Shown piece after piece: positions 7,512 through 22,793 of a stretch of DNA of 64,000 nt. The position numbers and the translations under genes are program-made. The notes under the pieces were generated by a model. That model was given only the letters and a program-made list of their open reading frames with translations. It was not told where the DNA came from and made no database searches. The first letter of the stretch is position 1; the number at the start of each line of letters is the position of its first letter. Where the stretch lies: the NCBI RefSeq assembly GCF_056746865.1, contig NZ_CM163382.1. The stretch is one strand, 5' to 3'.

Positions 7512-7540
7512 ACTGATTCCTCGCGGTGCTGTTTCGCTTA

Positions 7541-7669: not shown

Positions 7670-7670
7670 A

Positions 7671-7826: not shown

Positions 7827-8070
7827 GCTGACCTCATTTCCCCTTAACGCCGGGGTAGCGGAACAAAAACCTGCTGCATAGTTATTAAAGTTGAACCCTG
7901 CCGTCATGTTCTTACGCCTCGGGCTGGCTACTTAACCCCTGACCACTGCCGGGTAACTCGAAGTATTTCCCTGCGTTCTGTGGGGCGGGGTGGGTTGGTA
8001 TGTTGTTAATGTAACAAGAGTTACCTTTCGAGTCAATACAATGTTGCAAAAGGTACATTTGAGGGCATAA

Positions 8071-8095
8071 AAAACCCGCAATGAATGCGGGTTCT
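8071..8095 (-). terminator. Intrinsic terminator downstream of repressor gene
   Basis: Hairpin ACCCGCA-ttca-TGCGGGT followed by T-run on the minus strand, immediately 3' of cI stop. Confidence 0.5.
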
Positions 8096-8098
8096 GAC

Positions 8099-8872
8099 TC
8101 AGTCTAAGTATTGATGTATTTGTGAAACTTTACCTTTAATGGTGTAACCACCATTCAGTTCGATGGGTTTGTAAAGCGGATTCAGTGACAACAAATAGAT
8201 GTTTGGTCCGTCAATCGCAACTTTTTTTAGTGTTACGTTTGGCGTTCCTTCCAATTGGATTAAGATTATTTTTCCCACCAGTTCTCTAATGTTACTTGAG
8301 CATGGTGTGATCAGCACGGTAGATCCGTCGGGGATGGTTGGGAGGCCGTTAGAGTTTGTCATCGCATCTCCCTCAACATGCAATAAAAAAGAGTTTTCAG
8401 CGGTTTTTGTCATGACATCAACCCAGTTATTAATACCAGGAATCTTGGTTACTGGACAACTCATATCCCAATAACCAGCCTGTTCCCACGTTAAAACGGG
8501 CAACCGGGCGATGTTGTCACTAATGTAAGGGTACTGATTCAGACGCAGATCATCGGTTTTATCGTGACAGTCCTTTCCATAAAGAATCCATTCAGGAGAT
8601 TTGGAAAGCAATTTTGACAGTAGATACAAATTCTCACCGTCAGGTTTTGAAGAGCCATTTTCCCATTTTGTTACGGATACACGAGATATGCCGATTGCTT
8701 TCGCAACCTGCTGTTGGGTTAATCCAACGTCTTTTCGACGATTCCGAATACGTTCGCTGATAGTGTTTTTCATGTAACCAATGTTACTACCAAGTGATGT
8801 TGCTATGGTTGACATTGTTATGTAACTATTGTTACCCTTCTGCTCGAAATAACAGGAGAGTTTTATGTTCAA
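8099..8872 (-). CDS. cI: CI-like phage repressor (XRE HTH plus S24 LexA-like peptidase domain)
   Basis: HTH region GLTQQQVAKAIGISRVSVTKWENG; C-terminal S24-like region; divergent from cro-like gene; likely true start at ATG 8815 (MSTIATSLG). Confidence 0.85.
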   Translation of the reverse strand: MNIKLSCYFEQKGNNSYITMSTIATSLGSNIGYMKNTISERIRNRRKDVGLTQQQVAKAIGISRVSVTKWENGSSKPDGENLYLLSKLLSKSPEWILYGKDCHDKTDDLRLNQYPYISDNIARLPVLTWEQAGYWDMSCPVTKIPGINNWVDVMTKTAENSFLLHVEGDAMTNSNGLPTIPDGSTVLITPCSSNIRELVGKIILIQLEGTPNVTLKKVAIDGPNIYLLSLNPLYKPIELNGGYTIKGKVSQIHQYLD

Positions 8873-9080
8873 AGATGATGTTCTGCGCTATTTCAAAAAA
8901 AAGCGACTAGTAGCTGAGGCTCTTGGAATTTCACATGTGGCTGTTGTGCGGTGGAAAGCAGTTATTCCCAAACTTCGCGCAATGGAACTGGATGAAATTA
9001 CTAACGGTGAATTGAAATACAACCCAGAACTTTACAAGAAGCAGGATAGCACCTCGAACGAAGGAAAGAATGATTCATGA
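8865..9080 (+). CDS. cro: Cro-like HTH regulator
   Basis: 71 aa, LVAEALGISHVAVVRWK HTH; strong RBS AGGAGAG; divergent from cI. Confidence 0.7.
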   Translation: MFKDDVLRYFKKKRLVAEALGISHVAVVRWKAVIPKLRAMELDEITNGELKYNPELYKKQDSTSNEGKNDS

Positions 9081-9502
9081 AAATCAAGCATGAACACATC
9101 CGCATGGCGATGAATGTCTGGGCGCATCCGGACGGCGAAAAAGTACCGGCTGCGAAAATTACCAAAGCGTATTTCGAGCTGGGAATGACGTTCCCGGAAC
9201 TGTATGACGACAGCCATCCGGAAGCCCTGGCCCGTAATACCCAGAAAATTTTCCGTTGGCTGGATAAAGACACCCCTGATGCTGTTGAAAAAATGCAGGC
9301 TCTGTTACCGGCGATCGAAAAGGCGATGCCGCCTTTGCTGGTGGCCCGTATGCGCAGCCACAGTTCTGAATATTACCGTGAGATCGTCGAACGGAGGGAT
9401 CGGCTGGTGAAGGATGTCGATGATTTTGTTGCGTCAGCGGTTGTTTTGTATGACCAGATGAATCGCGGCGGCCCGGCAGGGAATGCTGTGGTGATGCACT
9501 AA
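9077..9502 (+). CDS. YdaT-like protein (CII-position regulator/toxin family)
   Basis: 141 aa starting MKIKHEHI, as Rac YdaT; ATGA overlap with cro stop. Confidence 0.55.
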   Translation: MKIKHEHIRMAMNVWAHPDGEKVPAAKITKAYFELGMTFPELYDDSHPEALARNTQKIFRWLDKDTPDAVEKMQALLPAIEKAMPPLLVARMRSHSSEYYREIVERRDRLVKDVDDFVASAVVLYDQMNRGGPAGNAVVMH

Positions 9503-9509
9503 AAGCACG

Positions 9510-10487
9510 GTGTTCGGGGGTTTTATGAGCAGCAAGCTTCATGGTCTTGTCTGGGAAGGGTGCGCCTTCACCGGCATGATCTTATCCAGGGTGGCGGTTA
9601 TGGCCCGTCTTGCAGACTACAGCAATGACGAGGGCGTGTCATGGCCTGCCATTGAAACTATCCGGCGTCAGATCGGTGCAAGAAGTGAATCCACAGTGAA
9701 ATCGGCTATTGCAGAACTGGCGAAAGAGGGCTGGCTGACGAAGGAAGAGCGTAAGGTCGGTGGGCGTAATGTAAGCAATATCTATCGGCTTAATGTGGAA
9801 AAACTCGAAGCAGCTGCGGCGGCGGCGCGTGAGTCATATAAACCGAAAAGAAAAATTAGCCCGGCAAAAAATGACCCGTTAACAGTTGACCCGTCAAATA
9901 TTGACCCCTCAACGGTTGACCCGTCAAATTTTGATGGATCAACTGTTGATAAAAAACTGCCGATTAGGGGGGCGATGATTGACCCCGATCCGTCAGTATT
10001 AAAACCTGATCCGTCAGATAAAAGATCTTCTTGTCCGGACGCTTCGCAACCGGACCCGCAGACGGCTGAACAGGATTTTTTAACCCGACACCCTGACGCG
10101 GTTGTGTTCAGTGCGAAAAAACGCCAGTGGGGAAGTCAGGAAGATTTGGTGTGCGCACAGTGGATCTGGGGACGAATCGTGAGTCTTTACGAGCAGGCGG
10201 CCAGCGATGATGGCGAGATCACTAGACCGAAAGAACCCAACTGGACAGCATGGGCCAATGACGTTCGCACAATGCGGATGCTGGATGGCAGAACTCACAG
10301 ACAAATTTGTGAAATGTTTGGGCGTCTCCAGCGGGATTCGTTCTGGGTAAAAAACATCATGAGTCCGGCAAAACTCCGGGAAAAATGGGATGAACTGGTT
10401 ATCCGCCTGGGGCGTTCGCCTGCGCAGCGTTGCGTGAATCACATTTCTGAACCGGACACTGAAATACCGCCGGGATTCAGGGGGTGA
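9510..10487 (+). CDS. Replication initiation protein (lambda O functional analogue, YdaU-like)
   Basis: N-terminal winged-helix-like region; internal DNA iterons; immediately upstream of DnaC-like loader; start may be ATG 9525. Confidence 0.6.
   Translation: MFGGFMSSKLHGLVWEGCAFTGMILSRVAVMARLADYSNDEGVSWPAIETIRRQIGARSESTVKSAIAELAKEGWLTKEERKVGGRNVSNIYRLNVEKLEAAAAAARESYKPKRKISPAKNDPLTVDPSNIDPSTVDPSNFDGSTVDKKLPIRGAMIDPDPSVLKPDPSDKRSSCPDASQPDPQTAEQDFLTRHPDAVVFSAKKRQWGSQEDLVCAQWIWGRIVSLYEQAASDDGEITRPKEPNWTAWANDVRTMRMLDGRTHRQICEMFGRLQRDSFWVKNIMSPAKLREKWDELVIRLGRSPAQRCVNHISEPDTEIPPGFRG
9880..10020. repeat. Iteron cluster (candidate phage origin) inside the replication initiator gene
   Basis: Repeated TTGACCCGTCAAAT / TTGACCCCTCAACGG / TGACCCCGATCCGTCAG units, encoding DPSN/DPST peptide repeats. 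Confidence 0.5.
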
Positions 10488-10493
10488 CGTGTC

Positions 10494-11240
10494 ATGAAAA
10501 ACATTGCGGCAGTTGGGGTTCTTGAACGTATTCGCAGACTTGCACCACAGGGGTCGGTTCCACCGTACCGGACGGTGGAGGAGTGGCGGGAATGGCAACT
10601 TGCTGAAGGACGAAAACGCAGCGAGGAGATTAACCGCCAGAATCGCCAGTTGCGGGTGGAAAAAATCCTGAATCGTTCGGGCATCCAGCCTCTGCACAGC
10701 AAATGCTCGTTTGCAAATTATCAGGTGCAGAACGACGGGCAAAAATACGCGCTGAGCCAGGCCAAATCCATAGCTGACGAACTGATGACCGGGTGCACGA
10801 ATTTTGTGTTCAGCGGTAAAACCGGCACCGGGAAAAATCACCTTGCAGCGGCGATGGGCAACCGGCTGATGGTGAAGGGGCGCAGCGTGATTATCGTCAC
10901 CGTGTCTGACGTCATGAGCGTGTTGCATGACAGCTACGACAACGGCAAATCCGGGGAAAAATTTTTACAGGAGCTTTGCGGGGTTGATTTGCTGGTCCTG
11001 GATGAAATAGGCGTTCAGCGGGAGACGAAAAACGAGCAGGTGGTATTGCACCAGATAATTGATCGCCGGACAGCATCACTGTGCAGTGTCGGGATGTTAA
11101 CAAACCTGAATCATGCCGCAATGAGTACGCTTCTTGGTGAGAGGATTATGGACCGCATGACCATGAACGGTGGTCGATGGGTGACGTTTAACTGGGATAG
11201 CTGGCGTCCAAATGTCAGCAATATGAGGGTTGTGAAGTAA
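10494..11240 (+). CDS. DnaC-like helicase loader (IstB-like AAA+ ATPase)
   Basis: Walker A GKTGTGKNHLAAA and Walker B LLVLDEIG. Confidence 0.85.
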   Translation: MKNIAAVGVLERIRRLAPQGSVPPYRTVEEWREWQLAEGRKRSEEINRQNRQLRVEKILNRSGIQPLHSKCSFANYQVQNDGQKYALSQAKSIADELMTGCTNFVFSGKTGTGKNHLAAAMGNRLMVKGRSVIIVTVSDVMSVLHDSYDNGKSGEKFLQELCGVDLLVLDEIGVQRETKNEQVVLHQIIDRRTASLCSVGMLTNLNHAAMSTLLGERIMDRMTMNGGRWVTFNWDSWRPNVSNMRVVK

Positions 11241-11261
11241 TTTTGTCCGGAGGAAATTTTA

Positions 11262-12032
11262 ATGGAAACCGTATCTGACGCACTGAAAGCACTGAAAAAA
11301 GCCTCTTCACATGTGGTGGCAGCTCGCCTTGGAATCAGTCGTGAAGAGGCTGTCAACGAGCTGTGGGAACTCAAAAGAAATGGCGTCGTTGATAAAACTG
11401 GTCACACCTGGTTTCTGGCTGGCGAAGGTGAATCCCGGGTAACCGAAGAGCGGCCAGTAAAATCTGAAGCACAGGATATGCTGACCGGGGAGGTCGAACA
11501 AAAAGTTACCGCAGACATGATGATTGAGTTTATCGGTCAGGATGGGGCTAAAACGTGTGAGGAACTGGCGGGTAAGTTCGGTGTCAGTACTCGCAAGGTT
11601 GCTTCCACGCTGGCGGTGGTAACCGCAACGGGGCGGCTGGCACGCGTTAATCAGAACGGTAAATTTCGTTACTGCATGCCGGGCGATAATTTACCAGCAG
11701 AGCCGAAAGCCGCGCTGGTAACGGAAAGTGATGGTAAGGCCTTTCCTCAGCCAGCAGGTGCTGCGTTACCAGGCCGGGAAGCCGCAACACAGGAAGAAAT
11801 TAAAACAGAAACTGTGGCGGACATTGTGCAGTCGTTGCCATCGTTTACCGAAACGCAAGCAGATGAGCTGATTTTTCCGTCCCTGCGCAGGGCAAACCTG
11901 GCGCTGCGCAGGGCGAAAAGTGATGTTCAGAAGTGGGAGCGAGTCTGCGCCGCGCTGCGGGAGCTGAACAAGCACCGGGATATTGTTCGACAGATTACTG
12001 ATTCTTCCCGCCGTGTTGTATCGGAAAAGTGA
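11262..12032 (+). CDS. Hypothetical protein with two winged-helix-like repeats
   Basis: 256 aa; internal repeats AARLGISREEAVNELWELKRNGVV and LAGKFGVSTRKVASTLAVVTATGRLARV. Confidence 0.5.
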   Translation: METVSDALKALKKASSHVVAARLGISREEAVNELWELKRNGVVDKTGHTWFLAGEGESRVTEERPVKSEAQDMLTGEVEQKVTADMMIEFIGQDGAKTCEELAGKFGVSTRKVASTLAVVTATGRLARVNQNGKFRYCMPGDNLPAEPKAALVTESDGKAFPQPAGAALPGREAATQEEIKTETVADIVQSLPSFTETQADELIFPSLRRANLALRRAKSDVQKWERVCAALRELNKHRDIVRQITDSSRRVVSEK

Positions 12033-12047
12033 TTGCCGGAGGCGCTT

Positions 12048-12470
12048 ATGGCAAAAGTATTTACACAAGAAGAGCGGGAAAAAATTAAAGGGCAGGTTGT
12101 TGAACTTGTACGTCTGAGCGGTCGCGAGACGTTGCGGCAACTGGAAGCCAAGACAGGTGCGACAAGATATCTGATGAGTGTTCTCGCCAGAGAGCTGGTT
12201 GCCAGTGGCGATGTATACAACTCTGGTTACGGGTTATTCCCGTCTGAACAGGCGCGTAAGGACTGGCAAAACGCCCGCAAAAAACTCTCAAGGGCAAATC
12301 TGAAGAAACCATCTGTGGTTGATCCTGACCTTATCTGGCCATTACCAGACGGCGAAATACGCCGCTACGACAGGCGTCAAAACATAATCTGTAGCGAGTG
12401 CCGGAAGAGCGAAGCTATGCAGCGTGTACTGGCTTTCTATCAGGGTAATTTTCAGAAGGTGCTGTTGTGA
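12048..12470 (+). CDS. Hypothetical protein, putative wHTH
   Basis: ATG at 12048 with GGAGG RBS (track ORF starts at an upstream TTG, 12033). Confidence 0.5.
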   Translation: MAKVFTQEEREKIKGQVVELVRLSGRETLRQLEAKTGATRYLMSVLARELVASGDVYNSGYGLFPSEQARKDWQNARKKLSRANLKKPSVVDPDLIWPLPDGEIRRYDRRQNIICSECRKSEAMQRVLAFYQGNFQKVLL

Positions 12471-12575
12471 GCCAAATTAACAATCGGAACTTCGTGAAGA
12501 GAAAGCATAATCCAAATCTGAATAATTAAGTTCAGCACTGTAAATAAAATTTAATCCTTAACTGGAGGTATATCT

Positions 12576-12686
12576 ATGTCAAATACACAGAAAATTATTA
12601 ACACTGAAAAATATAACGAGTGGGTGAAAAATTCTCTGAGCAGATTTTTAAAATTACTGGCGACGAGAATGTGGCAAAAAATGAAT
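12576..12686 (+). CDS. Small basic protein (36 aa), hypothetical
   Basis: Manual translation MSNTQKIINTEKYNEWVKNSLSRFLKLLATRMWQKMN; GGAGG RBS 8 nt upstream; below track cutoff. Confidence 0.3.
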
Positions 12687-12819
12687 TAGAACCGTGGACA
12701 CCTGAAGGAAACGCACCAAATTATTGCTGGTGGGAGGTTGATCCGGTTGATGCTGCAAATGAAGCCATGAGTTACCACAACGATTAATGTCGGGAGGCCG
12801 CCCGAAAGGGCGGTAAGAA

Positions 12820-13038
12820 ATGACTACATTATTCAGAAAAGAATATCCGCAAAAAAGTAGGGCGACAGAATTTTTGTTTCTCATTCTGTTTATCGTATTG
12901 ATGATACCGATATCCCCTCTAATTTTTGTCTGGGCAATCGGGAAAATAATTGAGCCAGTTTCTGAATTGTATAACGACGTGGTGTGGGCGTCATTCAACA
13001 CACTGCACAATAAAATTAATCCGTATAAGGAAAACTGA
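12820..13038 (+). CDS. Small membrane protein, hypothetical
   Basis: 72 aa with one long hydrophobic segment; start preceded by GGAGG and a GNRA hairpin. Confidence 0.4.
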   Translation: MTTLFRKEYPQKSRATEFLFLILFIVLMIPISPLIFVWAIGKIIEPVSELYNDVVWASFNTLHNKINPYKEN

Positions 13039-13039
13039 T

Positions 13040-13243
13040 ATGGCAACTTTGACAAAAAAAGAACGGGCATGGTTGAACGAATTACAGGAAGTTCTTGATC
13101 GCTGTCCATCACCGAAAAAATTGGCTTTTACACCATTGGCGATAAAAGCATTTACCTGTATGACCTACGCCGCATGGATGAAATCATGGAGGCTCTTGAT
13201 AATCGTTCGTCGATGGATTGGTGTGTTGCTGTTCATGATATGA
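13040..13243 (+). CDS. Hypothetical small protein (67 aa)
   Basis: ATG overlapping the previous stop (TGATATG); internal Met of track ORF 12950..13243. Confidence 0.35.
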   Translation: MATLTKKERAWLNELQEVLDRCPSPKKLAFTPLAIKAFTCMTYAAWMKSWRLLIIVRRWIGVLLFMI

Positions 13244-13433
13244 ATGCAGGGTTTGATGAAAAGATTTTGTTCCCCTCATCAGTTGAAAGCACTGCGGGTT
13301 AAGGAGTAACACATGACCACTATTACCAAAGAACGTATTGAATTGTTCATTAAATTTTCAGGAGGCGGTACTGTGAGTGAAATTAGCTATCAGGCTTCAA
13401 TTACCGCTGGCATTCGCATCAAAGGAGAGGAGC

Positions 13434-13790
13434 ATGGAAATAAAACCAGAGGATGAGTTAAGCAATATCGTTTTATTTCCGGTAAAAGAGGATGACCCTC
13501 GTAATCAGGTTAATTTTCTTTATGAGCCATCGGAAAGACCATATTGTCATCACGCCTCTGTCCGGGTTGACGAAAAAGAGCGTCAGGTCCGCTGTAAAAT
13601 CTGCGGTGCAGTTGTGGAACCATTTGACTGGATGCTCTCTGTGGCGAAAAGAGAAACCAGACTGGCAGATGATGTAAGGCTCTTGCGTCAGGAGGAGCGG
13701 GAAAGGCGAAAAAATATAGAAAAGCTAATTCAGATTGAGCGTAACGCGAAAGCGCGGATACGCAGGGCGACAAAATCCAGAACTGAATAA
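13434..13790 (+). CDS. Hypothetical zinc-ribbon protein
   Basis: Start MEIKPEDE after AAAGGAGAGGAG RBS; CHH...CKICG motif; basic C-terminus. Confidence 0.45.
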   Translation: MEIKPEDELSNIVLFPVKEDDPRNQVNFLYEPSERPYCHHASVRVDEKERQVRCKICGAVVEPFDWMLSVAKRETRLADDVRLLRQEERERRKNIEKLIQIERNAKARIRRATKSRTE

Positions 13791-13883
13791 TTAAATTTAG
13801 CTCTGTTAAAAATTTAATCCTTAACCGGAGGGATTTCTGCACCCTCAGAACATCAGGAGGCCGCCCGAAAGGGCGGTAGTTAA

Positions 13884-14066
13884 ATGCGAAAGTTTAAAAT
13901 AATTATTGAAACGGGAATAGCCGGTGGAGATTTCGAGGATGAATTCGAAGTGGATGATGATGCGACGCCTGATGAAATACATGACGAAGCAAAAGATATT
14001 TTCTTTAACTACTGCAATTACTCATATCACGAAATAAAAGACGAAGAGGAAGAACAAAATGGCTGA
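13884..14066 (+). CDS. Small acidic protein, hypothetical
   Basis: 60 aa, highly acidic; start preceded by the second GGAGG/GNRA-hairpin module. Confidence 0.4.
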   Translation: MRKFKIIIETGIAGGDFEDEFEVDDDATPDEIHDEAKDIFFNYCNYSYHEIKDEEEEQNG

Positions 14067-14235
14067 TTTTGGTTCAACTAAATACAACGTCGGTTTTGAA
14101 GAATGGCATGAACTGTTAATGGACTATGCAGAGTTACGTGGTGGCAGTGCTGCTGATGCTGAAGCATGGCGTGATGATTATGAAGCAGGAAAAACTCCGG
14201 TCGAAGCATATTGTGATGAGTGGGGCGATGAATGA
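14059..14235 (+). CDS. Small acidic protein (58 aa), hypothetical
   Basis: Manual translation MADFGSTKYNVGFEEWHELLMDYAELRGG...; overlaps previous stop. Confidence 0.3.
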   Translation: MADFGSTKYNVGFEEWHELLMDYAELRGGSAADAEAWRDDYEAGKTPVEAYCDEWGDE

Positions 14236-14717
14236 GCGAGGTTAATTATCAGGAAGGGCATGAAACGGCGGGGCAAGCAAAAACAGTGGCATGGCGATAT
14301 CGCTACGTGAAAAAAAGGCGTTACGGACTTTCAGGGGAAGTAGTGGTCTGGTGACTGGAAATATGTACCGAAAAAAGAGGATTGTAACGACAGGCCGAAC
14401 TATGAAATTCAGGCCTTATTCACTGCCCCGCCAGTCCCGGTTACATCAGAAGAACTGGTTAAAGCTGTGCACTTTTATGAACAACTAAAATGCGAAAATC
14501 CACCAGCATCCGGAAACCTGATTACAGATTCCCAGATAAGGCAATGAGCTACCTGGCGCAGAACGGGCTGATAAGTATGGGGAATGTTTTACGATGAATA
14601 TTTAGACTAAAGAGTTTGTAACGCTATGTAAGTGATTTTTTCTGGTTTAGATATTTATATGTCCGGCTAAATTGAGGTGTGTTTAAATGTTATTGCACAT
14701 TGATTGTAGGGGGAATA

Positions 14718-14897
14718 ATGAAAAACGCATTGCAGTTTTTGTTTGTTGCGTTCTGGTTGTTCGCATCATGTATGCCCATCATCTTCACAGCAAGGTATAT
14801 GGAAAAAGTTGATGTTTTGATATTAATGTTTGGACATATAAATGCCCTTTTTTTAGGGGTGTTCATGGCGGTCATGTGCATTGAATACTGGCGGTAA
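14718..14897 (+). CDS. Small hydrophobic membrane protein, hypothetical
   Basis: Internal Met MKNALQFLFVAFWLF...; AT-rich surroundings. Confidence 0.3.
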   Translation: MKNALQFLFVAFWLFASCMPIIFTARYMEKVDVLILMFGHINALFLGVFMAVMCIEYWR

Positions 14898-15155
14898 ATA
14901 CAGCGAACGCCATTGGTTTAGTTGGATATTTACTGTGCCGGACAAAAACGGTTTGCGGGGAAATCTTAGTTAAGTAGAATGACTGCGGGTGCTTGAGGCT
15001 ATCTGTCTCAGGCATGAACACCAAAAGGCAGATAGAGAAAAGCCCCAGTTAACATTACGCGTCCTGCAAGACGCTTAACATTAATCTGAGGCCATATCTA
15101 TGCGACACATAGAGATTAGCCTCTTACGGACCGAAAGGTCAAGGAGAAGCAGGCT

Positions 15156-15311
15156 ATGAAGCAGCAAAAGGCGATGTTAATCGCCCTGATCGTCATCTGT
15201 TTAACCGTCATAGTGACGGCACTGGTAACGAGGAAAGACCTCTGCGAGGTACGAATCCGAACCGGCCAGACGGAGGTCGCTGTCTTCACAGCTTACGAAC
15301 CTGAGGAGTAA
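15156..15311 (+). CDS. hok: Hok/Gef-family type I toxin
   Basis: 51 aa MKQQKAMLIALIVICLTVIVTALVTRKDLCEVRIRTGQTEVAVFTAYEPEE, Hok-like TM helix plus CE(I/V)R motif; AAGGAG RBS; short overlapping upstream leader ORF (mok-like). Confidence 0.85.
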   Translation: MKQQKAMLIALIVICLTVIVTALVTRKDLCEVRIRTGQTEVAVFTAYEPEE

Positions 15312-15380
15312 GAGACCAGGCGAGGGGGAAATCCCTCGCCACCTCTGATGAGTCAGGCATCCTCAACGCACCCGCACTTA

Positions 15381-15407
15381 ACCCGCTTCGGCGGGTTTTG
15401 TTTTTTC
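15381..15407 (+). terminator. Intrinsic terminator after hok
   Basis: ACCCGC-ttcg-GCGGGT hairpin followed by TTTGTTTTTT. Confidence 0.6.
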
Positions 15408-15478
15408 CTGGCATTCTGGTTTACAATTCGCACGTCAGCCTGAACACCTGACACCTGCTGCGCCAGTAGAGAAAACAG

Positions 15479-15751
15479 ATGGCGCACAAAACCAAATTTC
15501 ACAATTCTGATACCGACCTTGCCATCCGGCATGGGCGGCGTTCACACGCATTTAAAACCGACTGGTACCAACACCCACCATGTACTGAAGAACAGGCCGA
15601 ATGGCTAATTCATAACTACCGCAGACGCGGATACGAGATTAAGAAAGCCCTCAGCCTCGATTATCGTCACTGGATAATCTATGTCAGGCTCCCTTATTCC
15701 GAACGCTCACCGCGCCCATCCCGCACATTCCAGCAACGCATCTGGAGGTAA
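15479..15751 (+). CDS. Hypothetical protein (90 aa), overlaps the DUF968 gene out of frame
   Basis: ORF overlapping 15681..16802 by 71 nt in another frame. Confidence 0.3.
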   Translation: MAHKTKFHNSDTDLAIRHGRRSHAFKTDWYQHPPCTEEQAEWLIHNYRRRGYEIKKALSLDYRHWIIYVRLPYSERSPRPSRTFQQRIWR

Positions 15752-16802
15752 CGTGCGGATATTACTTCGACCTGTTCTGGTACCGGAACTCGGGCTGGTG
15801 GTCCTTAGGCCGGGCCGTGAATCCATGCCGGTATTCCACAATACCCGGGTACTGGTGGAGCCTGAACCGAAAAGCATGCACGGTCTGCCGTCCGGAGTCG
15901 TCCCTGCCGTTCGCCAGCCGCTGGCGGAGGATAAATCATTTCTGCCATTTTTCAGCGATGAGCGGGTGATTCGTGCTGCTGGCGGCGCTGGGGCACTGTC
16001 TGACTGGCTGTTGCGTCATGTCAAATCCTGCCAGTGGCCTCATGGTGACTATCATCACAGTGAAATCGTCATACATCGTTACGGTACCGGCGCGATGGTG
16101 TTGTGCTGGCACTGCGACAACCAGTTGCGCGACCAGACCTCCGAATCACTCGGGCAACTTGCTCATCAAAACCTGTCAGCATGGATGATTGACGTCATAC
16201 GCCATGCAATGAATGGCACGCAGGAGCGGGAATTGTCGCTGGCTGAATTATCCTGGTGGGCGGTCCGCAATCAGGTGGCGGACGCGCTACCGGAAGTGGT
16301 ATTACGTCGTTCGCTGGGGTTGCGTGCGGAAAAAATCCGCTCAATGTACCGTGAAAGCGACATCGTACCGGGAGAGCAGACCGCCACCAGCATACTGAAA
16401 CAGCGCACAAAAAATATTGCGCCGCTGCCTCACGCCCACCAGCAACAGAACCCACCACAGGAAAAGACGGTGGTCAGCATTGCCGTTGATCCTGAGTCTC
16501 CGGAATCTTTCATGAAACGACCTAAACGTCGCCGCTGGGTTAACGAGAAATACAAACGCTGGGTGAAGACACAGCCGTGTGCGTGTTGTGGTAAGCCAGC
16601 CGACGATCCCCATCACCTGATTGGTCATGGTCAGGGCGGAATGGGGACAAAATCTCACGATATTTTCACGCTACCGCTGTGTCGGGAGCATCACAACGAG
16701 CTTCATGCGGATCCTCTGGCGTTCGAACAAAAGCATGGTTCTCAGGTTGATTTAATTTTTCGTTTTCTTGATCACGCCTTTGCAACTGGCGTGCTTGGGT
16801 AA
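15681..16802 (+). CDS. DUF968-like protein (Cys/His-rich C-terminal domain)
   Basis: C-terminal CACCGK...HHLIGHGQGGMGTKSHD...CREHHNELH region typical of prophage DUF968/YdfU-like proteins; start uncertain (alternative ATG 15825). Confidence 0.55.
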   Translation: MSGSLIPNAHRAHPAHSSNASGGNVRILLRPVLVPELGLVVLRPGRESMPVFHNTRVLVEPEPKSMHGLPSGVVPAVRQPLAEDKSFLPFFSDERVIRAAGGAGALSDWLLRHVKSCQWPHGDYHHSEIVIHRYGTGAMVLCWHCDNQLRDQTSESLGQLAHQNLSAWMIDVIRHAMNGTQERELSLAELSWWAVRNQVADALPEVVLRRSLGLRAEKIRSMYRESDIVPGEQTATSILKQRTKNIAPLPHAHQQQNPPQEKTVVSIAVDPESPESFMKRPKRRRWVNEKYKRWVKTQPCACCGKPADDPHHLIGHGQGGMGTKSHDIFTLPLCREHHNELHADPLAFEQKHGSQVDLIFRFLDHAFATGVLG

Positions 16803-16814
16803 AAGAGGTGACTG

Positions 16815-17174
16815 ATGCTCATAGATTTGGTTTTACCTTACCCGCCGACGGTGAACACTTACTGGCGACGCCGTGGCAGCACATATTTTATTTCGGAGGA
16901 GGGAAAGCGTTATCGCCGGGCTGTGGCGCTTATTGTTCGCCAGCAGCGGCTGAAATTAAGCCTGTCCGGAAGGCTGGCGATAAAGGTGATTGCAGAGCCA
17001 CCGGATAAGCGTCGTCGCGACCTGGACAATATCCTGAAAGCACCGCTGGATGCGCTGACGCATGCGGGAGTGTTAATGGACGATGAGCAGTTTGATGAAA
17101 TCAATATTGTACGTGGTCAGCCAGTATCTGGTGGACGGCTGGGTGTGAAGATTTACAAAATTGAGAGTGAGTGA
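16815..17174 (+). CDS. rusA: Holliday junction resolvase RusA
   Basis: 119 aa; LPYPPTVNTYWRRRG and RRRDLDN motifs match RusA. Confidence 0.9.
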   Translation: MLIDLVLPYPPTVNTYWRRRGSTYFISEEGKRYRRAVALIVRQQRLKLSLSGRLAIKVIAEPPDKRRRDLDNILKAPLDALTHAGVLMDDEQFDEINIVRGQPVSGGRLGVKIYKIESE

Positions 17175-17737
17175 GCGTAAATATGATATATCCGGAAATT
17201 ACAGGCAAAAGCGGCGAGCATTTACGTCTAAAAACGCTGGAAGCAGTCTGGATCCAGGGGAAATTACGGATGTGGGGGCGGTGGCCGTATATTGGCGGCG
17301 GTAAGACGGGAAATATGTTCAACCAATTACTGACCTCTAAAAAGCTGACAAAAACGGCAATTAACGAGGCGCTCCGGAGGATGAAAAAAGCTGGTCTGGA
17401 CAAACCTGAACTTGAGGCTTTTTTGCGGGATATGATCAACGGCAATCAAAAAAGCTGGCTGGCACATTGTACCGATTCAGAGGCGTTAATAATCGACAGG
17501 GTTATTGGTGAAGTCCTGGCAGGCTATCCCGGGCTGCTCAATGTCCTGAGTCAGCGTTATGTGGGGCGGGGGATGACTAAGCGCAAAATGGCTGAACTGC
17601 TGAATGATGCACACCCGGAATGGAGTTTAAGAACCTGTGAAAGACGCATTGAGCATTGGCTAAAGGTGGCAGAATTTATTTTGTACAAACCAATGGTTAT
17701 GGCTTTTGGTATAGAGAAAAAAGTTATTGCTTTTTGA
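17171..17737 (+). CDS. Q: Late antitermination protein Q (lambdoid Q-like)
   Basis: 188 aa directly after rusA and followed by a strong intrinsic terminator (tR'-like). Confidence 0.65.
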   Translation: MSVNMIYPEITGKSGEHLRLKTLEAVWIQGKLRMWGRWPYIGGGKTGNMFNQLLTSKKLTKTAINEALRRMKKAGLDKPELEAFLRDMINGNQKSWLAHCTDSEALIIDRVIGEVLAGYPGLLNVLSQRYVGRGMTKRKMAELLNDAHPEWSLRTCERRIEHWLKVAEFILYKPMVMAFGIEKKVIAF

Positions 17738-17814
17738 CGTAAAAACTGCTTCAATTCCGGTACGCTTCGCAAAGCTGTACCACGAGGCGAATAGCAGACA
17801 TGGACATTTGAAAG

Positions 17815-17839
17815 AGCCCGCTTTTTGCGGGTTTTTTTA
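17815..17839 (+). terminator. tR'-like intrinsic terminator downstream of Q
   Basis: GCCCGC-ttttt-GCGGG hairpin followed by TTTTTTT. Confidence 0.65.
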
Positions 17840-17961
17840 TGCCTGAAAAACGGCACAGAACATTAAACGCGCTGGTGGTTGCGAATACCGGTCTTTCAGC
17901 TTGCTGGCTTTTCCGACAAGAGTTATTGGTATGTTACGTTAACCAGAAAAGGGAAAAAGAC

Positions 17962-18159
17962 ATGCTAAAACAGCAGGATATGACCGAAACCGCCAGAGTG
18001 GTGTTTAATGAGTTAAGCGTCACCGAACCGGCGACAGTCGGGGAGATTGCACAGAATACTTACCTTTCACGCGAACGCTGCCAGTTAATACTGACCCAGC
18101 TTGTTATGGCGGGTCTGGCAGACTATCAGTTTGGTTGTTACAGACACCTTCAGTCCTGA
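17962..18159 (+). CDS. Hypothetical small wHTH-like protein
   Basis: Internal Met MLKQQDMTETARV...; motif TVGEIAQNTYLSRERCQLILTQL; followed by hairpin plus T-run at 18147..18173. Confidence 0.35.
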   Translation: MLKQQDMTETARVVFNELSVTEPATVGEIAQNTYLSRERCQLILTQLVMAGLADYQFGCYRHLQS

Positions 18160-18295
18160 AGGCTTTTTTATTTGTGGTAAATGGGCGGCTGGTGGGTGTG
18201 GTGGTAGACTGGCCCCCTGAATCTCCAGACAACCAATATCACTTATTTAAGTGATAGTCTTAATACTAGTTTTTAGACTAGTCATTGGAGAACAG

Positions 18296-18661
18296 ATGAT
18301 TGATGTCTTAGGGCCGGAGAAACGCAGACGGCGTACCACACAGGAAAAGATCGCAATTGTTCAGCAGAGCTTTGAACCGGGGATGACGGTCTCCCTCGTT
18401 GCCCGGCAACATGGTGTAGCAGCCAGCCAGTTATTTCTCTGGCGTAAGCAATACCAGGAAGGAAGTCTTACTGCTGTCGCCGCCGGAGAACAGGTTGTTC
18501 CTGCCTCTGAACTTGCTGCCGCCATGAAGCAGATTAAAGAACTCCAGCGCCTGCTCGGCAAGAAAACGATGGAAAATGAACTCCTCAAAGAAGCCGTTGA
18601 ATATGGACGGGCAAAAAAGTGGATAGCGCACGCGCCCTTATTGCCCGGGGATGGGGAGTAA
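18296..18661 (+). CDS. insC: IS2 transposase OrfA (InsC)
   Basis: [40 protein letters not shown]... matches InsC. Confidence 0.9.
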
Positions 18662-19524
18662 GCTTAGTCAGCCGTTGTCTCCGGGTGTCGCGTGCGCAGT
18701 TGCACGTCATTCTCAGACGAACCGATGACTGGATGGATGGCCGCCGCAGTCGTCACACTGATGATACGGATGTGCTTCTCCGTATACACCATGTTATCGG
18801 AGAGCTGCCCACGTATGGTTATCGTCGGGTATGGGCGCTGCTTCGCAGACAGGCAGAACTTGATGGTATGCCTGCGATCAATGCCAAACGTGTTTACCGG
18901 ATCATGCGCCAGAATGCGCTGTTGCTTGAGCGAAAACCTGCTGTACCGCCATCGAAACGGGCACATACAGGCAGAGTGGCAGTGAAAGAAAGTAATCAGC
19001 GATGGTGCTCTGACGGGTTCGAGTTCCGCTGTGATAACGGAGAAAAACTGCGAGTCACGTTCGCGCAGGACTGCTGTGACCGTGAGGCACTGCACTGGGC
19101 GGTCACTACGGGCGGCTTCAACAGTGAAACAGTACAGGACGTCATGCTGGGAGCGGTGGAACGCCGCTTCGGCAACGAGCTTCCGGCGTCTCCAGTAGAG
19201 TGGCTGACGGATAATGGTTCATGCTACCGGGCTAATGAAACACGGCAGTTTGCCCGGATGTTGGGGCTTGAACCGAAGAGCACGGCGGTGCGGAGTCCGG
19301 AGAGTAACGGCATAGCAGAGAGCTTCGTGAAAACGATAAAGCGTGACTACATCAGTGTCATGCCCAAACCAGACGGGTTAACGGCAGCAAAGAACCTTGC
19401 AGAGGCGTTCGAGCATTATAACGAATGGCATCCGCATAGTGCACTGGGTTATCGCTCGCCACGGGAATATCTACGGCAGCAAGCCAGTAATGGGTTAAGT
19501 GATAACAGGTGTCTGGAAATATAG
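18619..19524 (+). CDS. insD: IS2 transposase OrfB (InsD), DDE domain
   Basis: 301-aa ORF overlapping orfA in -1 frame, typical IS3-family frameshift arrangement. Confidence 0.9.
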
Positions 19525-19879
19525 GGGCAAATCCAGGTGGTTGTTGCTTTCCCGTTGCTGAAAAAGAAAACGCCAGACTGTTAGCCGGGTATCAGTTATC
19601 TGGAGAAATTTTTAAATACCTCACAATTCAGGCGGTTGACTGTTGTCTGGTTTGCGGGGAGTTTGTTAAAAGAAACTGGCATGGTGAATCCCCCTGTGCG
19701 GAGGGGCAATCAGCAACTGGTGTTTTGTCACCGACCCTTATCCTTTCTGTGCGGGTTCAGGTGCTGATACTGAACTCACCGGGAGGCACCCGGCATCATG
19801 CAATGGCACATAGCGCCACTCTCCAGCCCCTCTCCGGAGGGGCTGTTTATATTGATTTTGTCAGATGTGAGTAAACTCC

Positions 19880-20215
19880 TTATGGACTTTGTTGTTTTAG
19901 TCCATAAGGACATATTTGCAGAGTGCAACGGTTATTAAAGCATTCATTCAATACGTTATCTGTATTTGTAGGACATTCCTGGCTGTTTTTGATTAAATTC
20001 CAGAATGTTTTATTGAATGGTACTACGTTGTAAATGGTTAAAGGTAGCACTTTGTTATTGAGCATGATACCTGTGTGAGTCAGTGTAAATATACTTTCAG
20101 GAGGTAAGAAAGCATCCGATTGATACCAGATTATTAATTTTATTTTACTCCATATGACTGAAAAAGATATTCCGCATGATGGCTGGATAACTGTATCAAT
20201 CACAATCCACTTCAT
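19880..20215 (-). CDS. IraM-like anti-adaptor protein paralogue (prophage-borne)
   Basis: 111 aa, [22 protein letters not shown]...ICPYGLK; alignable over full length with the chromosomal iraM at 57426..57749; AT-rich. Confidence 0.7.
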
Positions 20216-20460
20216 TTAGTTTCCTTGTTTATGTCTTGCTGGTGATGTTCTGAAAAGTATAAATGATATTTTTGAATGTAAACCATAGAGCAGAATTATT
20301 TTTCTGATGTTGTTTATTGTTTATTTAAATGCAGGGTGGTTTATATCTCGTCTTGTAGTTTATCCATGCATATCTGCTTGATGATGAGGTTTTTATTTAA
20401 GGTATGGTTTTGTGTTTTTTCTGTATTACATGTCAGGTATTTTAAAGAATTATTTTTCAG

Positions 20461-22437
20461 ATGGTGGAAAGAACCATGGCATTTAAACACTATGATGTTG
20501 TCAGGGCGGCATCGCCGTCAGACCTTGCGAAACGACTGACACAAAAACTGAAGGAGGGGTGGCAGCCATTTGGCAGTCCGGTGGCCATCACGCCTTATAC
20601 CCTGATGCAGGCCATTGCGGCGGAAGGTGATGTCACCACACCTGTGGTGGTGAAGCCGTCGGATGGAGAAGGCGCAGTTATCAGCACCACCAGCAACCCG
20701 GAGTATTACTTTGTTGTTGCCCTGGCCGGGCAGTCAAACGGTATGGCGTATGGTGAAGGGCTTCCGCTGCCGGAGACATATGACCGTCCGGACCCGCGTA
20801 TTAAACAGCTGGCGCGTCGCAGCACTGTCACGCCGGGTGGTGCGTCCTGTAACTACAATGACATTATTCCTGCGGACCACTGCCTGCATGATGTTCAGGA
20901 TTTGAGTAAGTTTTCACACCCGAAAGCCAGCGCAGCTCAGTATGGATGCGTGGGGCAGGGATTACATATCGCGAAGAAATTGTTGCCGTTTATTCCGGCG
21001 AATGCCGGTATTCTTCTGGTTCCGTGCTGCCGTGGTGGTTCTGCATTTTTGGCGGGCGATGAAGGTACCTTCAGCGAATCCACCGGCGCAAGCGAGACCT
21101 CGGCACGCTGGGGTGTAGATAAGCCACTGTACAAGGACCTGCTTACCCGTACTCAGGCCGCACTGAAGGCCAACCCTAAAAATATTCTGCTTGCAGTGGT
21201 CTGGATGCAGGGCGAGTTTGATTTGAAACAGGGTGCATACGCCACTCAGCCGGGGCTGTTTGATTCCATGGTGGAAAAATATCGTTCTGACCTGTCGGAA
21301 TTCGGAGGTCAGTGTCTCGGGGGCTCTCCGTCATCAGTTCCCTGGATTTGTGGCGACACGACCTACTACTGGAAGCAGACTTATTCTTCGCAATACGATG
21401 CGGTGTATGGTGCATACAAGACGAAATCCGCAAAAAAAATCTTCTTTGTGCCGTTTATGACGGATGAAAACGGGCGAAATGTGGGTACCAACGAGCCGTC
21501 AGAAGATCCGGATGTTGCGGATATTGGGTATTACGGAGCCGGTGGTCGAACGGACGCCAAAACCTGGACGACGGCTGACCGTAAAACGCATTTTGGATCA
21601 TGGGCACGTCGTGGGATTATTTCCGACCGTCTGGCAACGGCGATTCTTGTGCATGCCGGGAGAAACGCTGAATTCATTACCGGAAAACAGCCTGATACGG
21701 TGAAGCCCACCGGACCTTCCGGTGAAGGTACGGAGAGAGAGCCGGGAGCCCCGGTCAGTAACCGAACCCTGATGAGTCTGCTGGCGTCCGGCGAAGACCT
21801 GGCATCACAGGGCTGGCGCTATTATCACAAACCGGCGAGCGGAGACAATGTTAACAAAAACATTGCTGAAGCGGTGGTCAGTGATGCGGGGGCTACGGGA
21901 GGTAAGGCCCTGCAACTGAATAAACCGGAAAACCACATCTGGTTTCTGGAGCATGATGCAGCCGGACAGGGAGTGGAGTTACTGAAGAAGGGGGGACGTG
22001 TGAGCGTACGGTTTAAGTTGCCGGGTTCACTGGTGCCGAATCAGTTTGCCCTGGGCATTTACTGGCAGTTGTCGTCCCTGCCGGAGGGAGTGACGCTGGC
22101 AGAGGAAGGCAACGACATGCTGATGTCCTTCTTTCTGCAGACGGATGCGACGAACCTGAACGCGATGCACCACAAGAAGCCGAATGCGAAGCTGGAAACG
22201 TTCGGGGTCTTTGATAACGGATGGCACACACTGGCTTTTGAGTTTGCCGGAAACAACAGCATTCAGGTGACGCCGGTACTGGATGAGAAACGGGGGACGC
22301 CGTTCACACTGGTGAAATCTCCGGCATCAGGGGCGGCGGACAAACTGCAACTGACAGGCATATCAAAGGCGGCGACATATACGCTGCTGATTGACAGTGT
22401 GAAGGTGGAAGTGAACAACGCGGACATCGCGGCATGA
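20461..22437 (+). CDS. nanS-p: NanS-p-type prophage sialate O-acetylesterase (SGNH hydrolase)
   Basis: 658 aa; N-terminal MAFKHYDVV (DUF1737-like), GQSN catalytic block; typical position downstream of Q in EHEC-type lambdoid prophages; likely start ATG 20476. Confidence 0.75.
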   Translation: MVERTMAFKHYDVVRAASPSDLAKRLTQKLKEGWQPFGSPVAITPYTLMQAIAAEGDVTTPVVVKPSDGEGAVISTTSNPEYYFVVALAGQSNGMAYGEGLPLPETYDRPDPRIKQLARRSTVTPGGASCNYNDIIPADHCLHDVQDLSKFSHPKASAAQYGCVGQGLHIAKKLLPFIPANAGILLVPCCRGGSAFLAGDEGTFSESTGASETSARWGVDKPLYKDLLTRTQAALKANPKNILLAVVWMQGEFDLKQGAYATQPGLFDSMVEKYRSDLSEFGGQCLGGSPSSVPWICGDTTYYWKQTYSSQYDAVYGAYKTKSAKKIFFVPFMTDENGRNVGTNEPSEDPDVADIGYYGAGGRTDAKTWTTADRKTHFGSWARRGIISDRLATAILVHAGRNAEFITGKQPDTVKPTGPSGEGTEREPGAPVSNRTLMSLLASGEDLASQGWRYYHKPASGDNVNKNIAEAVVSDAGATGGKALQLNKPENHIWFLEHDAAGQGVELLKKGGRVSVRFKLPGSLVPNQFALGIYWQLSSLPEGVTLAEEGNDMLMSFFLQTDATNLNAMHHKKPNAKLETFGVFDNGWHTLAFEFAGNNSIQVTPVLDEKRGTPFTLVKSPASGAADKLQLTGISKAATYTLLIDSVKVEVNNADIAA

Positions 22438-22793
22438 TAAAAAAAGCCGCCAGCGGCAGGAATGGAAGCTGGCGGAGGTAATCCCAATGGAGAATGTAAA
22501 GAAAAGATGCTTTCGACATCAATCATTTCTAAATGAAAACAGTTCTCATTGTCAACCATAACGGTAAGAAATTATGACATTTATTCATCAGGTAATGCTG
22601 TACTTCTGTATGGCAGTTTGTGTTATGTATCTTCTTTCGGGTGGGTACAGGGCAGTGCGCGATTTCTGGCGCAGGCAGATTGATAAAAGGGCCGCTGAGA
22701 GAATCAGCGCCAGTCAGTCAGCCGGAAGCAAACCCGAAGATCCGCTCATTCCGTAGTCACTTTCTTGACAACACCTTTCAACGAGAAAATCCC

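What the first reader, a model, noticed from the sequence alone, without database searches (positions are those of the whole stretch)
15000..15410. hok-family type I toxin locus in the nin-like region
A 51-aa Hok/Gef-like ORF (15156..15311) has a strong RBS, a short overlapping upstream leader ORF (15101..15160, mok-like) and a strong intrinsic terminator (15381..15407). A Sok-like antisense RNA would be expected on the minus strand across 15080..15160, but I cannot delimit it by eye. The locus may stabilise the prophage or act in abortive infection.
Basis: partly seen in the sequence, partly recalled or inferred. Interest (0 to 1): 0.4.

Follow-up and report, generated by a model that had tools for sequence, protein, structure and literature searches.

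The report
Intact hokD/sok toxin-antitoxin locus in prophage
This is an ordinary, already known small-toxin/antisense-RNA "host killing" module (hokD type, near-twin of hokW-sokW of Shiga-toxin phages) in the early region of a Qin-like E. coli prophage, with all its RNA control elements intact.

Summary
ORF 15156..15311 encodes a 51-aa Hok/Gef protein (Pfam E=1.2e-23). It is identical in DNA to E. coli K-12 hokD (relF) and is annotated hokD in identical RefSeq genomes.

K-12 hokD lost its leader to relBE. This copy keeps the whole canonical hok/sok apparatus:
- a full-length Rfam hit over the leader, 14987..15158;
- a 5' element (tac) that can pair with three mutually exclusive partners: a nascent hairpin, the 3' fbi box at 15361-15375, and ucb at 15040-15046;
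- a terminator at 15380-15406.

The Sok antisense RNA is placed by homology to annotated, experimentally validated sokW at 15106->15038 on the minus strand. Its promoter is at 15113-15142.

Context is the nin-equivalent region of a Qin-like lambdoid prophage. Transcription, toxicity and biological role were not testable here.

Verdict: correct call, already known, low interest. Minor extras are natural variation in the mok reading frame and a hypervariable Sok 5' tail among prophage copies.

The parts
14975..14980 (+). hok/mok promoter -10 box TAGAAT. A weak -35 candidate TTTGCG lies at 14952-14957.
   Evidence: Read. The box is conserved in 63-65 of 67 relatives, while sequence upstream of about 14968 diverges. 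It sits 7 nt upstream of the 5' end inferred from the Rfam and R1 alignments. The generic promoter scan did not call it, so the assignment rests on homology only.
14987..15404 (+). Full-length mok-hok mRNA (inferred ends)
   Evidence: The Rfam RF01794 match starts at 14987. The block conserved among 67 relatives runs from about 14975 to about 15378 plus the terminator. MFE -177.7 kcal/mol, z=-8.3.
14987..14998 (+). tac (translational activator element), 5' GGGUGCUUGAGG. It has three alternative pairing partners.
   Evidence: Pairs with fbi in the full-length fold, with ucb in the 3'-truncated fold, and with 15005-15015 in the nascent 32-nt fold. Near-invariant in relatives: entropy 0.02 bits.
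15005..15015 (+). 3' arm of the metastable 5' hairpin, pairing with 14989-14999 in the nascent transcript
   Evidence: 11 bp, -16.9 kcal/mol, z=-4.3. 99.7% of cells are paired across 67 relatives. The two polymorphic sites (15006 U/C, 15010 A/G) keep pairing through wobble.
15040..15046 (+). ucb (upstream complementary box, the mok anti-SD), AAGCCCC
   Evidence: Its core 15042-15044 pairs with the mok SD region in the full-length fold. The whole box 15040-15046 pairs with tac in the truncated fold. The same tac-ucb helix is in the Rfam consensus structure. 99.8% paired in relatives but invariant, so uninformative for covariation.
15038..15106 (-). Sok antisense RNA (69 nt): 13-nt 5' tail, 49-nt hairpin, U4 tail. 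It covers the mok SD and the mok AUG.
   Evidence: The annotated sokW of phage 933W (71 nt) maps to these window coordinates. Fold -31.7 kcal/mol, z=-5.3, hairpin followed by UUUU. Three hairpin pairs carry compensatory double changes in 4 relatives. Transcription not tested here.
15113..15142 (-). Sok promoter: -35 TTGACC (15142->15137), 18-nt spacer, -10 TAATCT (15118->15113)
   Evidence: Positionally homologous to the hexamers I read as the Sok promoter in the R1-type sequence, TTGCGC-17-TATCCT (alignment). That these are the R1 Sok promoter is from my own knowledge, not from any annotation seen here. The predicted start, 6-7 nt downstream, equals the mapped sokW 5' end. Low variability: 0.14-0.18 bits. 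Not called by the generic scan because the -10 matches only 3 of 6.
15088..15091 (+). mok Shine-Dalgarno GAGG, 8 nt before the mok ATG
   Evidence: Invariant in 67 relatives. Sequestered by the ucb region in the full-length fold. Pairs with dcb 15119-15123 in the truncated fold.
15100..15159 (+). mok leader ORF: 19 codons plus TGA, which overlaps the hok ATG (ATGA)
   Evidence: Translation. The ATG is invariant in 67 relatives. The offset to the hok ATG is 56 nt here, against 57 (in-frame 70-aa fusion) or 58 (R1-like frame) elsewhere.
15119..15150 (+). Hairpin that sequesters the hok SD (CCUCUU paired with AAGGAG; GAAA-tetraloop stem 15129-15140). Its 5' end, GCCUC 15119-15123, doubles as dcb.
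   Evidence: Present in the full-length MFE. Local fold -13.0 kcal/mol, z=-2.7. 100% paired in relatives (helix 6). dcb pairing with the mok SD is seen.
15156..15311 (+). hok (hokD) coding sequence, 51 aa
   Evidence: 100% nt identity to K-12 hokD. Annotated hokD in identical RefSeq genomes.
15294..15297 (+). TACG motif at Tyr47, the known TadA A-to-I (Tyr->Cys) recoding site of hok genes
   Evidence: Invariant in 67 relatives and in the R1-type hok. Editing of hokD mRNA (6%) is reported in PMC12214031. A local hairpin is not supported by folding: z=+0.2.
15319..15340 (+). GC-rich 3'-UTR hairpin, probable protective 3' end of the processed (truncated) mRNA
   Evidence: 9 bp, -18.6 kcal/mol, z=-3.7. 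99.5% paired with one-sided changes in relatives (helix 16). The role is inferred from the R1 model (PMC9841398).
15361..15375 (+). fbi (fold-back inhibitory element), CCUCAACGCACCCGC, complementary to tac
   Evidence: 14-bp helix with 14985-14998 in the full-length MFE. 99.0% paired in 67 relatives, with one pair changed on both sides (C-G to U-A, 2 sequences). The R1-type locus has its own matching tac/fbi pair, GGCGCUU/AAGCGCC.
15380..15406 (+). Intrinsic terminator of hok mRNA

Best explanation
This is a complete hok/sok-type type I toxin-antitoxin module. It is the non-rearranged form of E. coli hokD and a near-twin of hokW-sokW-mokW of Stx phages 933W/Sp5. It sits in the nin-equivalent region of a Qin-like lambdoid prophage.

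Inferred mechanism, taken from the R1 paradigm and matched element by element here:
1. A weak promoter (-10 at 14975-14980) makes a stable mRNA of about 420 nt.
2. While nascent, the 5' tac element is held in a metastable hairpin.
3. Once transcription is complete, tac pairs with the 3' fbi box. The mok SD is sequestered by ucb, and the hok SD is sequestered by CCUCUU. The mRNA can then neither be translated nor be bound by Sok.
4. Slow 3' trimming removes fbi. tac switches to ucb, and the mok start region becomes accessible.
5. The short-lived 69-nt Sok RNA (15106->15038, from its own promoter inside mok) pairs across the mok SD and AUG. This blocks mok translation and triggers RNase III cleavage.
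6. When Sok supply stops, ribosomes translate the 19-codon mok leader and melt the hok-SD hairpin. They terminate at the UGA overlapping the hok AUG and reinitiate. Sok supply would stop on prophage loss, transcription shut-off or prophage induction.
7. The 51-aa Hok inserts into the inner membrane and kills or depolarises the cell.

Shown here: gene identity, all sequence elements, the three alternative tac pairings in silico, and their conservation. Inferred: transcription, processing, toxicity in this strain, and the biological role. The most likely role is helping lysis and phage release or stabilising the prophage.
For: Protein family: Pfam HOK_GEF E=1.2e-23; PHROG 251.

Identity: 100% nt identity to RefSeq hokD loci, and at least 80% of the query covered in 2783 of 5426 complete E. 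coli genomes. The CDS is identical to K-12 hokD.

Leader: RF01794 full-length hit, 106.7 bits.

Homology to an experimentally validated system: about 91% nt identity over the aligned ~90% of the locus to 933W/Sp5 hokW-sokW-mokW. Sp5 HokW is toxic and is neutralised by sokW in an RNase III- and Hfq-dependent way (PMC8621323).

Sok: mapped at 15106->15038, hairpin plus U-tail, z=-5.3.

Alternative tac pairings: tac-fbi in the full-length MFE, z=-8.3; tac-ucb and mok SD-dcb in the truncated MFE; metastable hairpin.

Conservation: 96.7% of cells paired in 67 distinct relatives; 8 pairs and 28 cells with double changes against 6.1 cells in shuffles; slid controls 35-43% paired.

mok: SD and ATG are invariant while the downstream frame varies. 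This fits the published finding that mok only needs to be translated up to the hok SD (PMC9841398).

Context: prophage nin-like region.
Against: No expression data exist for this strain. The generic sigma-70 scan calls neither promoter, so both are assigned by homology only.

The tested structures were derived from the window's own MFE. That inflates the 'percent paired' figure relative to the slid controls. The relatives are close, so real covariation is sparse: most pairs never vary.

Chromosomal hok loci tested in the literature (hokA, hokB, hokC) did not give post-segregational killing (preprint 10.1101/2025.08.07.668861).

The 19-codon mok is the minority form (18 of 82 loci) and has not itself been tested.
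Confidence: 0.9

Rival explanations
1. The locus is a silent relic. Like the K-12 chromosomal hok loci, it is carried along in a decaying prophage and no longer produces toxin under any condition.
For: K-12 hokA, C, D and E are regarded as inactivated (PMC12214031). Tested chromosomal hok loci did not mediate PSK. The surrounding prophage carries IS elements and frameshifted ORFs.
Against: Every element disrupted in the K-12 copies is intact here: leader, Sok promoter and terminator, mok SD and ATG, tac, fbi and ucb. The Hok protein is identical to toxic HokD. Structure-preserving changes occur in relatives. A ~91%-identical phage copy is functional.
Confidence: 0.12
2. The 2-nt deletion after the mok ATG created the 19-codon leader. 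On this view it is a disabling frameshift that uncouples or weakens hok translation relative to the common 70-codon in-frame form.
For: Offset 57 (70-aa Mok-Hok fusion) is the majority, 54 of 82 loci, against 18 of 82 for the window's form. Premature mok stops upstream of the hok start abolish toxicity in R1.
Against: The stop here lies after the hok SD and overlaps the hok AUG (ATGA). In R1, mok translation is required only up to the hok SD, and stops beyond the hok start have no effect (PMC9841398). The form recurs in 17 further loci (16 IMG/VR contigs plus the source genome's own copy) with otherwise intact elements, which is not what a dead allele would show.
Confidence: 0.1
3. Role: a prophage addiction (post-segregational killing) or abortive-infection module, rather than a lysis helper.
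For: The R1 hok/sok paradigm is plasmid PSK. hok genes are enriched four-fold in prophages, and a role in phage defence has been reported for Hok (preprint).
Against: Deleting the close homologue hokW-sokW from Sp5 did not affect growth. It delayed lysis and halved phage release after mitomycin C. No enrichment of hok near defence systems was found. Nothing in the sequence discriminates between these roles.
Confidence: 0.35

Closest known systems
hokW-sokW-mokW of Stx2 phage 933W / Sakai prophage Sp5
   Same: About 91% nt identity over the aligned ~90% of the locus, with the same order of elements. Hok is 51 aa. Sok is annotated at the homologous position. It lies in a lambdoid phage. Experiments show it is a toxic type I TA whose Sok depends on RNase III and Hfq (PMC8621323).
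   Different: mokW is a 70-aa in-frame N-terminal extension of Hok (offset 57). Here mok is a separate 19-codon ORF (offset 56), caused by a 2-nt deletion after the ATG plus a 1-nt insertion at 15139. The Sok 5' tail differs, and the Sok promoter spacer is 18 nt rather than 17. The 933W copy lies at a different place in its genome and lacks the same terminator.
hokD (relF) of E. coli K-12 cryptic prophage Qin
   Same: The coding sequence is 100% identical at nucleotide level, and the 3' UTR is 93% identical. The prophage family is the same: dicB, dicF, ydfB and ydfC are nearby.
   Different: K-12 hokD is fused downstream of relBE and has no homology upstream of the CDS. It therefore has no Sok, mok, tac or ucb, and gives no Rfam hit. 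The window carries the unrearranged locus with its own regulation.
hok/sok (parB) of plasmid R1
   Same: The architecture and the conserved boxes are the same: tac GG.GCUUGAGGCU, AGCCCC, UAGCCUCUUAC, CAAGGAGAAG..AUGAA and GCUUACGAA. Each locus has its own self-complementary tac/fbi pair. The Sok promoter is at the same position. The same Rfam model hits at 87 bits.
   Different: The Hok proteins share only about 44% identity (figure reported for HokW against R1 Hok in PMC8621323). R1 mok is 70 codons in the +1 frame (offset 58). The Sok hairpin sequence differs. R1 is plasmid-borne with demonstrated PSK.

Membership tests
[quoted passage not shown] | Small (about 50 aa) hydrophobic Hok/Gef-domain toxin | tested here: met
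   PF01848 E=1.2e-23, covering profile positions 1-42 of 42. PHROG 251 E=2.8e-33.
[quoted passage not shown] | Conserved structured 5' leader of the hok mRNA (Rfam RF01794) | tested here: met
   106.7 bits against a gathering score of 59, model positions 1-157 of 157, at 14987..15158 on the + strand.
[quoted passage not shown] | Cis-encoded antisense Sok RNA with its own promoter and terminator, overlapping the mok translation initiation region | tested here: met
   Met at sequence level. The annotated sokW maps to 15106->15038. There is a hairpin plus U4 tail, z=-5.3. The promoter TTGACC-18-TAATCT is homologous to the R1 promoter. Actual transcription is not testable with these tools.
[quoted passage not shown] | mok leader ORF whose translation reaches the hok SD or start (translational coupling) | tested here: met
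   The ORF is 15100..15159 with an invariant SD and ATG, and its stop overlaps the hok ATG. The hok SD is held in a hairpin that the leader ORF traverses. Coupling itself is inferred.
[quoted passage not shown] | Long-range 5'-3' tac/fbi pairing in the full-length mRNA | tested here: met
   A 14-bp helix, 14985-14998 with 15361-15375, appears in the MFE and the centroid structure. It is 99% paired in 67 relatives with one compensatory pair.
[quoted passage not shown] | Refolding after 3' truncation (tac-ucb stem, mok SD-dcb stem) and a metastable 5' hairpin | tested here: met
   In silico only.
[quoted passage not shown] | Toxicity of Hok, neutralisation by Sok, 3' processing, and RNase III cleavage of the duplex | not testable with these tools
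   The identical protein (K-12 HokD) and the close homologue HokW are reported toxic.
K-12-type relBE-hokD (relBEF) operon | hokD lies immediately downstream of relE, is co-transcribed with it, and has no Sok/mok leader | tested here: not met
   There is no relBE here. The leader is homologous to hokW and R1 instead. K-12-type loci share no homology upstream of the CDS.
IsrK sRNA (Rfam RF01394) | Score at or above the Rfam gathering threshold (50 bits) | tested here: not met
   26 bits at 15320..15401. 33.2 and 25.1 bits at the homologous hok 3' UTRs of phage Rac and K-12.

The most novel reading that the evidence does not exclude
Two readings are not excluded by the evidence.

(1) The 20-nt stretch 15093-15112 (Sok 5' tail, equal to mok codons 2-5) is hypervariable. 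It may act as an address code that makes the many co-resident prophage and plasmid hok/sok copies mutually orthogonal. On this reading, the three naturally occurring mok frames (19-codon uORF, 70-aa Mok-Hok fusion, 68-aa overlapping ORF) are interchangeable ways of delivering ribosomes to hok.

(2) More speculatively, the hok 3' UTR (15320-15401) is the evolutionary source of, or acts like, the Gifsy-1 sRNA IsrK. It might then influence the downstream nin/Q genes.
Probability: 0.25. Interest if true: 0.4.

Novelty: already known. Interest (0 to 1): 0.13.

Why it matters
It matters little beyond correct annotation. RefSeq annotates only the hokD CDS here, so Sok, mok and the mRNA elements go unmarked. 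The Rfam family name 'sok' would mislead on strand and extent.

The locus is a natural example of what K-12 hokD looked like before relBE displaced its leader. [quoted passage not shown]

If the prophage is inducible, the module may affect lysis timing and phage yield, as shown for hokW-sokW.

Tried and rejected
- **Generic promoter scan of 14800-15550.** It found no promoter on either strand. Both promoters are therefore assigned by homology, not by consensus score.
- **Local hairpin around the TadA motif (15282-15308).** Not supported: -3.3 kcal/mol, z=+0.2. I keep only the motif and the literature report.
- **IsrK membership.** The hits recur but are sub-threshold (26-33 bits against 50). 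The IsrK paper does not mention hok. Kept as a lead only.
- **Do co-resident copies carry different Sok tails?** I compared copies from the same IMG genome (L057/L058, L071/L072, L074/L075, L077/L078). All differ. However, random pairs would differ about 89% of the time given the variant frequencies (my estimate, no call), so this says nothing.
- **Is the downstream 90-aa ORF (15479..15751) the K-12 neighbour Rem?** No similarity. It matches only PHROG 1212, of unknown function.
- **Upstream hydrophobic ORF.** No match in Pfam (72-aa form 14679..14897) or PHROGs (59-aa form 14718..14897).
- **The term 'sokD'.** It does not occur in the searched literature.
- **Covariation.** It is real but thin, because the 80 IMG/VR loci were chosen for 100% Hok identity. 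The low variability of the CDS is therefore partly by construction and was not used as evidence.

Full report
**Observation**

The sequence at 14940-15420 contains the 51-aa ORF 15156..15311, MKQQKAMLIALIVICLTVIVTALVTRKDLCEVRIRTGQTEVAVFTAYEPEE. It is a full-length Hok/Gef domain protein (PF01848, E=1.2e-23; PHROG 251 'MokW-like host killing'). AAGGAG lies 9 nt upstream of the ATG.

The short upstream ORF is real but sits at 15100..15159, not 15101..15160. It has 19 codons, and its TGA overlaps the hok ATG as ATGA. The terminator is confirmed: stem 15380-15397 plus a T-run.

**Identity and context**

Megablast against complete E. coli genomes finds 100% identical copies annotated 'type I toxin-antitoxin system toxin HokD'. 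At least 80% of the query is covered in 2783 of 5426 genomes.

Window 5928..24450 is 100% identical to E. coli CFSAN061770, so that annotation transfers. Reading left to right it shows:
- dicB, ydfC and ydfB;
- cI- and cro-like repressors;
- replication genes and small ORFs;
- hokD;
- a DUF968 protein, RusA and a DUF1133 (Q-like) protein;
- holin and lysozyme.

DicF RNA is also present.

**Relation to K-12 hokD**

In K-12, hokD lies 71 nt downstream of relE. Its CDS is 100% identical in DNA to the window's. Upstream of the CDS, however, similarity falls to chance level (37-50%), and K-12 gives no Rfam leader hit.

The literature treats K-12 hokD as inactivated by rearrangement or relBE integration (PMC12214031; PMC6379469). 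The window therefore carries the unrearranged locus.

**Closest studied relative**

Phage 933W/Sp5 hokW-sokW-mokW is about 91% identical over the aligned ~90% of the locus and is annotated with all three genes. In Sp5, HokW is toxic. sokW (71 nt) neutralises it in an RNase III- and Hfq-dependent way. Deleting the locus delays lysis and halves phage release after mitomycin C (PMC8621323).

**Anatomy of the RNA apparatus**

*Leader.* Rfam RF01794 matches 14987..15158 full length at 106.7 bits. This family, named 'sok antitoxin', matches the plus strand and ends at the hok AUG. It therefore models the hok mRNA leader, not the antisense RNA.

*Sok.* The real Sok is placed by mapping annotated sokW through the alignment: 15106->15038 on the minus strand. 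That RNA folds into a 13-nt 5' tail, a 49-nt hairpin and a U4 tail (-31.7 kcal/mol, z=-5.3). It covers the mok SD (15088-15091) and the mok AUG.

*Sok promoter.* TTGACC (15142->15137), an 18-nt spacer, then TAATCT (15118->15113). In the R1-type alignment this lines up with TTGCGC-17-TATCCT, which I take to be the R1 Sok promoter from my own knowledge.

*hok promoter.* The -10 box TAGAAT (14975-14980) is conserved in relatives, whereas sequence further upstream is not. The generic promoter scan called neither promoter.

**The structural switch**

Folding reproduces the R1 model summarised in PMC9841398:
- The first 32 nt form an 11-bp metastable hairpin that occupies tac.
- The full-length RNA (14985-15404) has a 14-bp tac/fbi helix, 14985-14998 with 15361-15375. 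The mok SD and the hok SD are both paired (MFE -177.7 kcal/mol, z=-8.3).
- An RNA cut before fbi (14987-15358) switches to tac/ucb (14987-14994 with 15040-15046). A mok SD/dcb stem forms (15088-15092 with 15119-15123), and the hok SD is released.

**Conservation**

A search of IMG/VR returned 80 loci, all with an identical Hok. These give 67 distinct leader-containing sequences (alignment A2).

The full-length structure is 96.7% paired, against 35-43% when the partners are slid. Eight pairs and 28 cells have changes on both sides, against 6.1 cells in shuffles. The double changes include A-U to G-C in the 5' hairpin (6 sequences), three pairs in the Sok/target hairpin (4 sequences), and one tac/fbi pair (2 sequences).

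The tac-ucb and mok SD-dcb helices are invariant, so they are uninformative. The metastable hairpin is 99.7% paired, and its two polymorphic sites keep pairing by wobble.

Two caveats apply. The structures came from the window's own MFE, and the relatives are close.

**mok variation**

Among 82 loci, the distance from the mok ATG to the hok ATG takes these values:

| Offset | Form | Loci |
|---|---|---|
| 57 | in-frame 70-aa Mok-Hok fusion, as in 933W | 54 |
| 56 | the window's 19-codon ORF | 18 |
| 58 | R1-like frame, 68 aa | 4 |
| 63 | K-12-like, no leader | 4 |
| none | no mok ATG found | 2 |

The mok SD and ATG are invariant. This agrees with the experimental result that mok must be translated only up to the hok SD. 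The 19-codon form should therefore be functional, probably through termination-reinitiation at ATGA.

**Hypervariable spot**

Within the transcript, variability peaks at 15093-15112, which is the Sok 5' tail and mok codons 2-5. Mean entropy there is 0.74 bits, against 0.02-0.22 in the other leader elements, with 18 variants in 67 sequences. This could diversify Sok specificity. I could not test that idea.

**Verdict**

The locus is a known kind and a known gene. It is interesting mainly as the intact counterpart of K-12 hokD.

Function in vivo was not testable, and neither was the biological role (lysis helper, prophage addiction or phage exclusion). The only direct evidence from a close homologue favours assistance in lysis after induction.

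Noticed in passing
window 14987..15158 (+): Rfam family RF01794 is named 'sok antitoxin', but it matches the sense strand and ends at the hok AUG. It therefore models the hok mRNA leader. Taken literally, it would place the antitoxin on the wrong strand and with the wrong extent.
   Followed up: yes
window 15093..15112; loci L002-L084: This is the most variable stretch of the transcript among 67 relatives (0.74 bits per site; 18 variants). It corresponds to the Sok 5' tail and mok codons 2-5, and it is flanked by an invariant mok SD/ATG and a conserved Sok -10 box. It may be a specificity determinant between co-resident hok/sok copies.
   Followed up: partly
window 15100..15159 versus L002 1632..1844 and L003 1638..1844: Close relatives with an identical Hok carry mok in three different frames, produced by two small indels (2 nt after the ATG; 1 nt at 15139). 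The forms are a 19-codon uORF, a 70-aa in-frame Mok-Hok fusion and a 68-aa overlapping ORF.
   Followed up: yes
window 15320..15401 (+); L003 1860..1940; L004 1530..1611 (-): Sub-threshold but recurrent full-length matches to the Salmonella Gifsy-1 sRNA IsrK (RF01394: 26, 33 and 25 bits against a gathering score of 50). They fall exactly on the hok 3' UTR plus terminator. IsrK may derive from a hok 3' UTR. The IsrK paper does not mention hok.
   Followed up: partly
window 15294..15297 (+): A TACG motif at Tyr47 is invariant in all relatives and in the R1-type hok. It is the reported TadA A-to-I recoding site (Tyr->Cys) of hokC, hokD and hokE. No convincing local hairpin was predicted.
   Followed up: partly
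window 14718..14897 (+) (or from GTG 14679): An unannotated ORF of 59-72 aa encodes a very hydrophobic, two-segment small protein with a GGGGG SD. It lies in an AT-rich stretch (38% GC) just upstream of the hok promoter. It has no Pfam or PHROG match, and the identical RefSeq genome has no annotated feature over this stretch.
   Followed up: partly
window 15353..15532 (-): RefSeq annotates a 59-aa hypothetical protein (WP_001112736.1, PHROG 2947) antisense to the hok fbi/terminator and to the start of the next gene. It is possibly a spurious call.
   Followed up: no
window 19650..19854 (+), 6539..6590 (-), 43041..43239 (+): Other Rfam hits above threshold: STnc100 sRNA (133.5 bits), DicF (76.7 bits) and IS009 (225.2 bits).
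   Followed up: no
loci L023, L034, L048, L073: A subgroup of relatives replaces the long Sok/target hairpin with one about 21 nt shorter. The flanking base pairs carry compensatory changes (GUUA/UAAUC to CCCG/CGAAG).
   Followed up: partly
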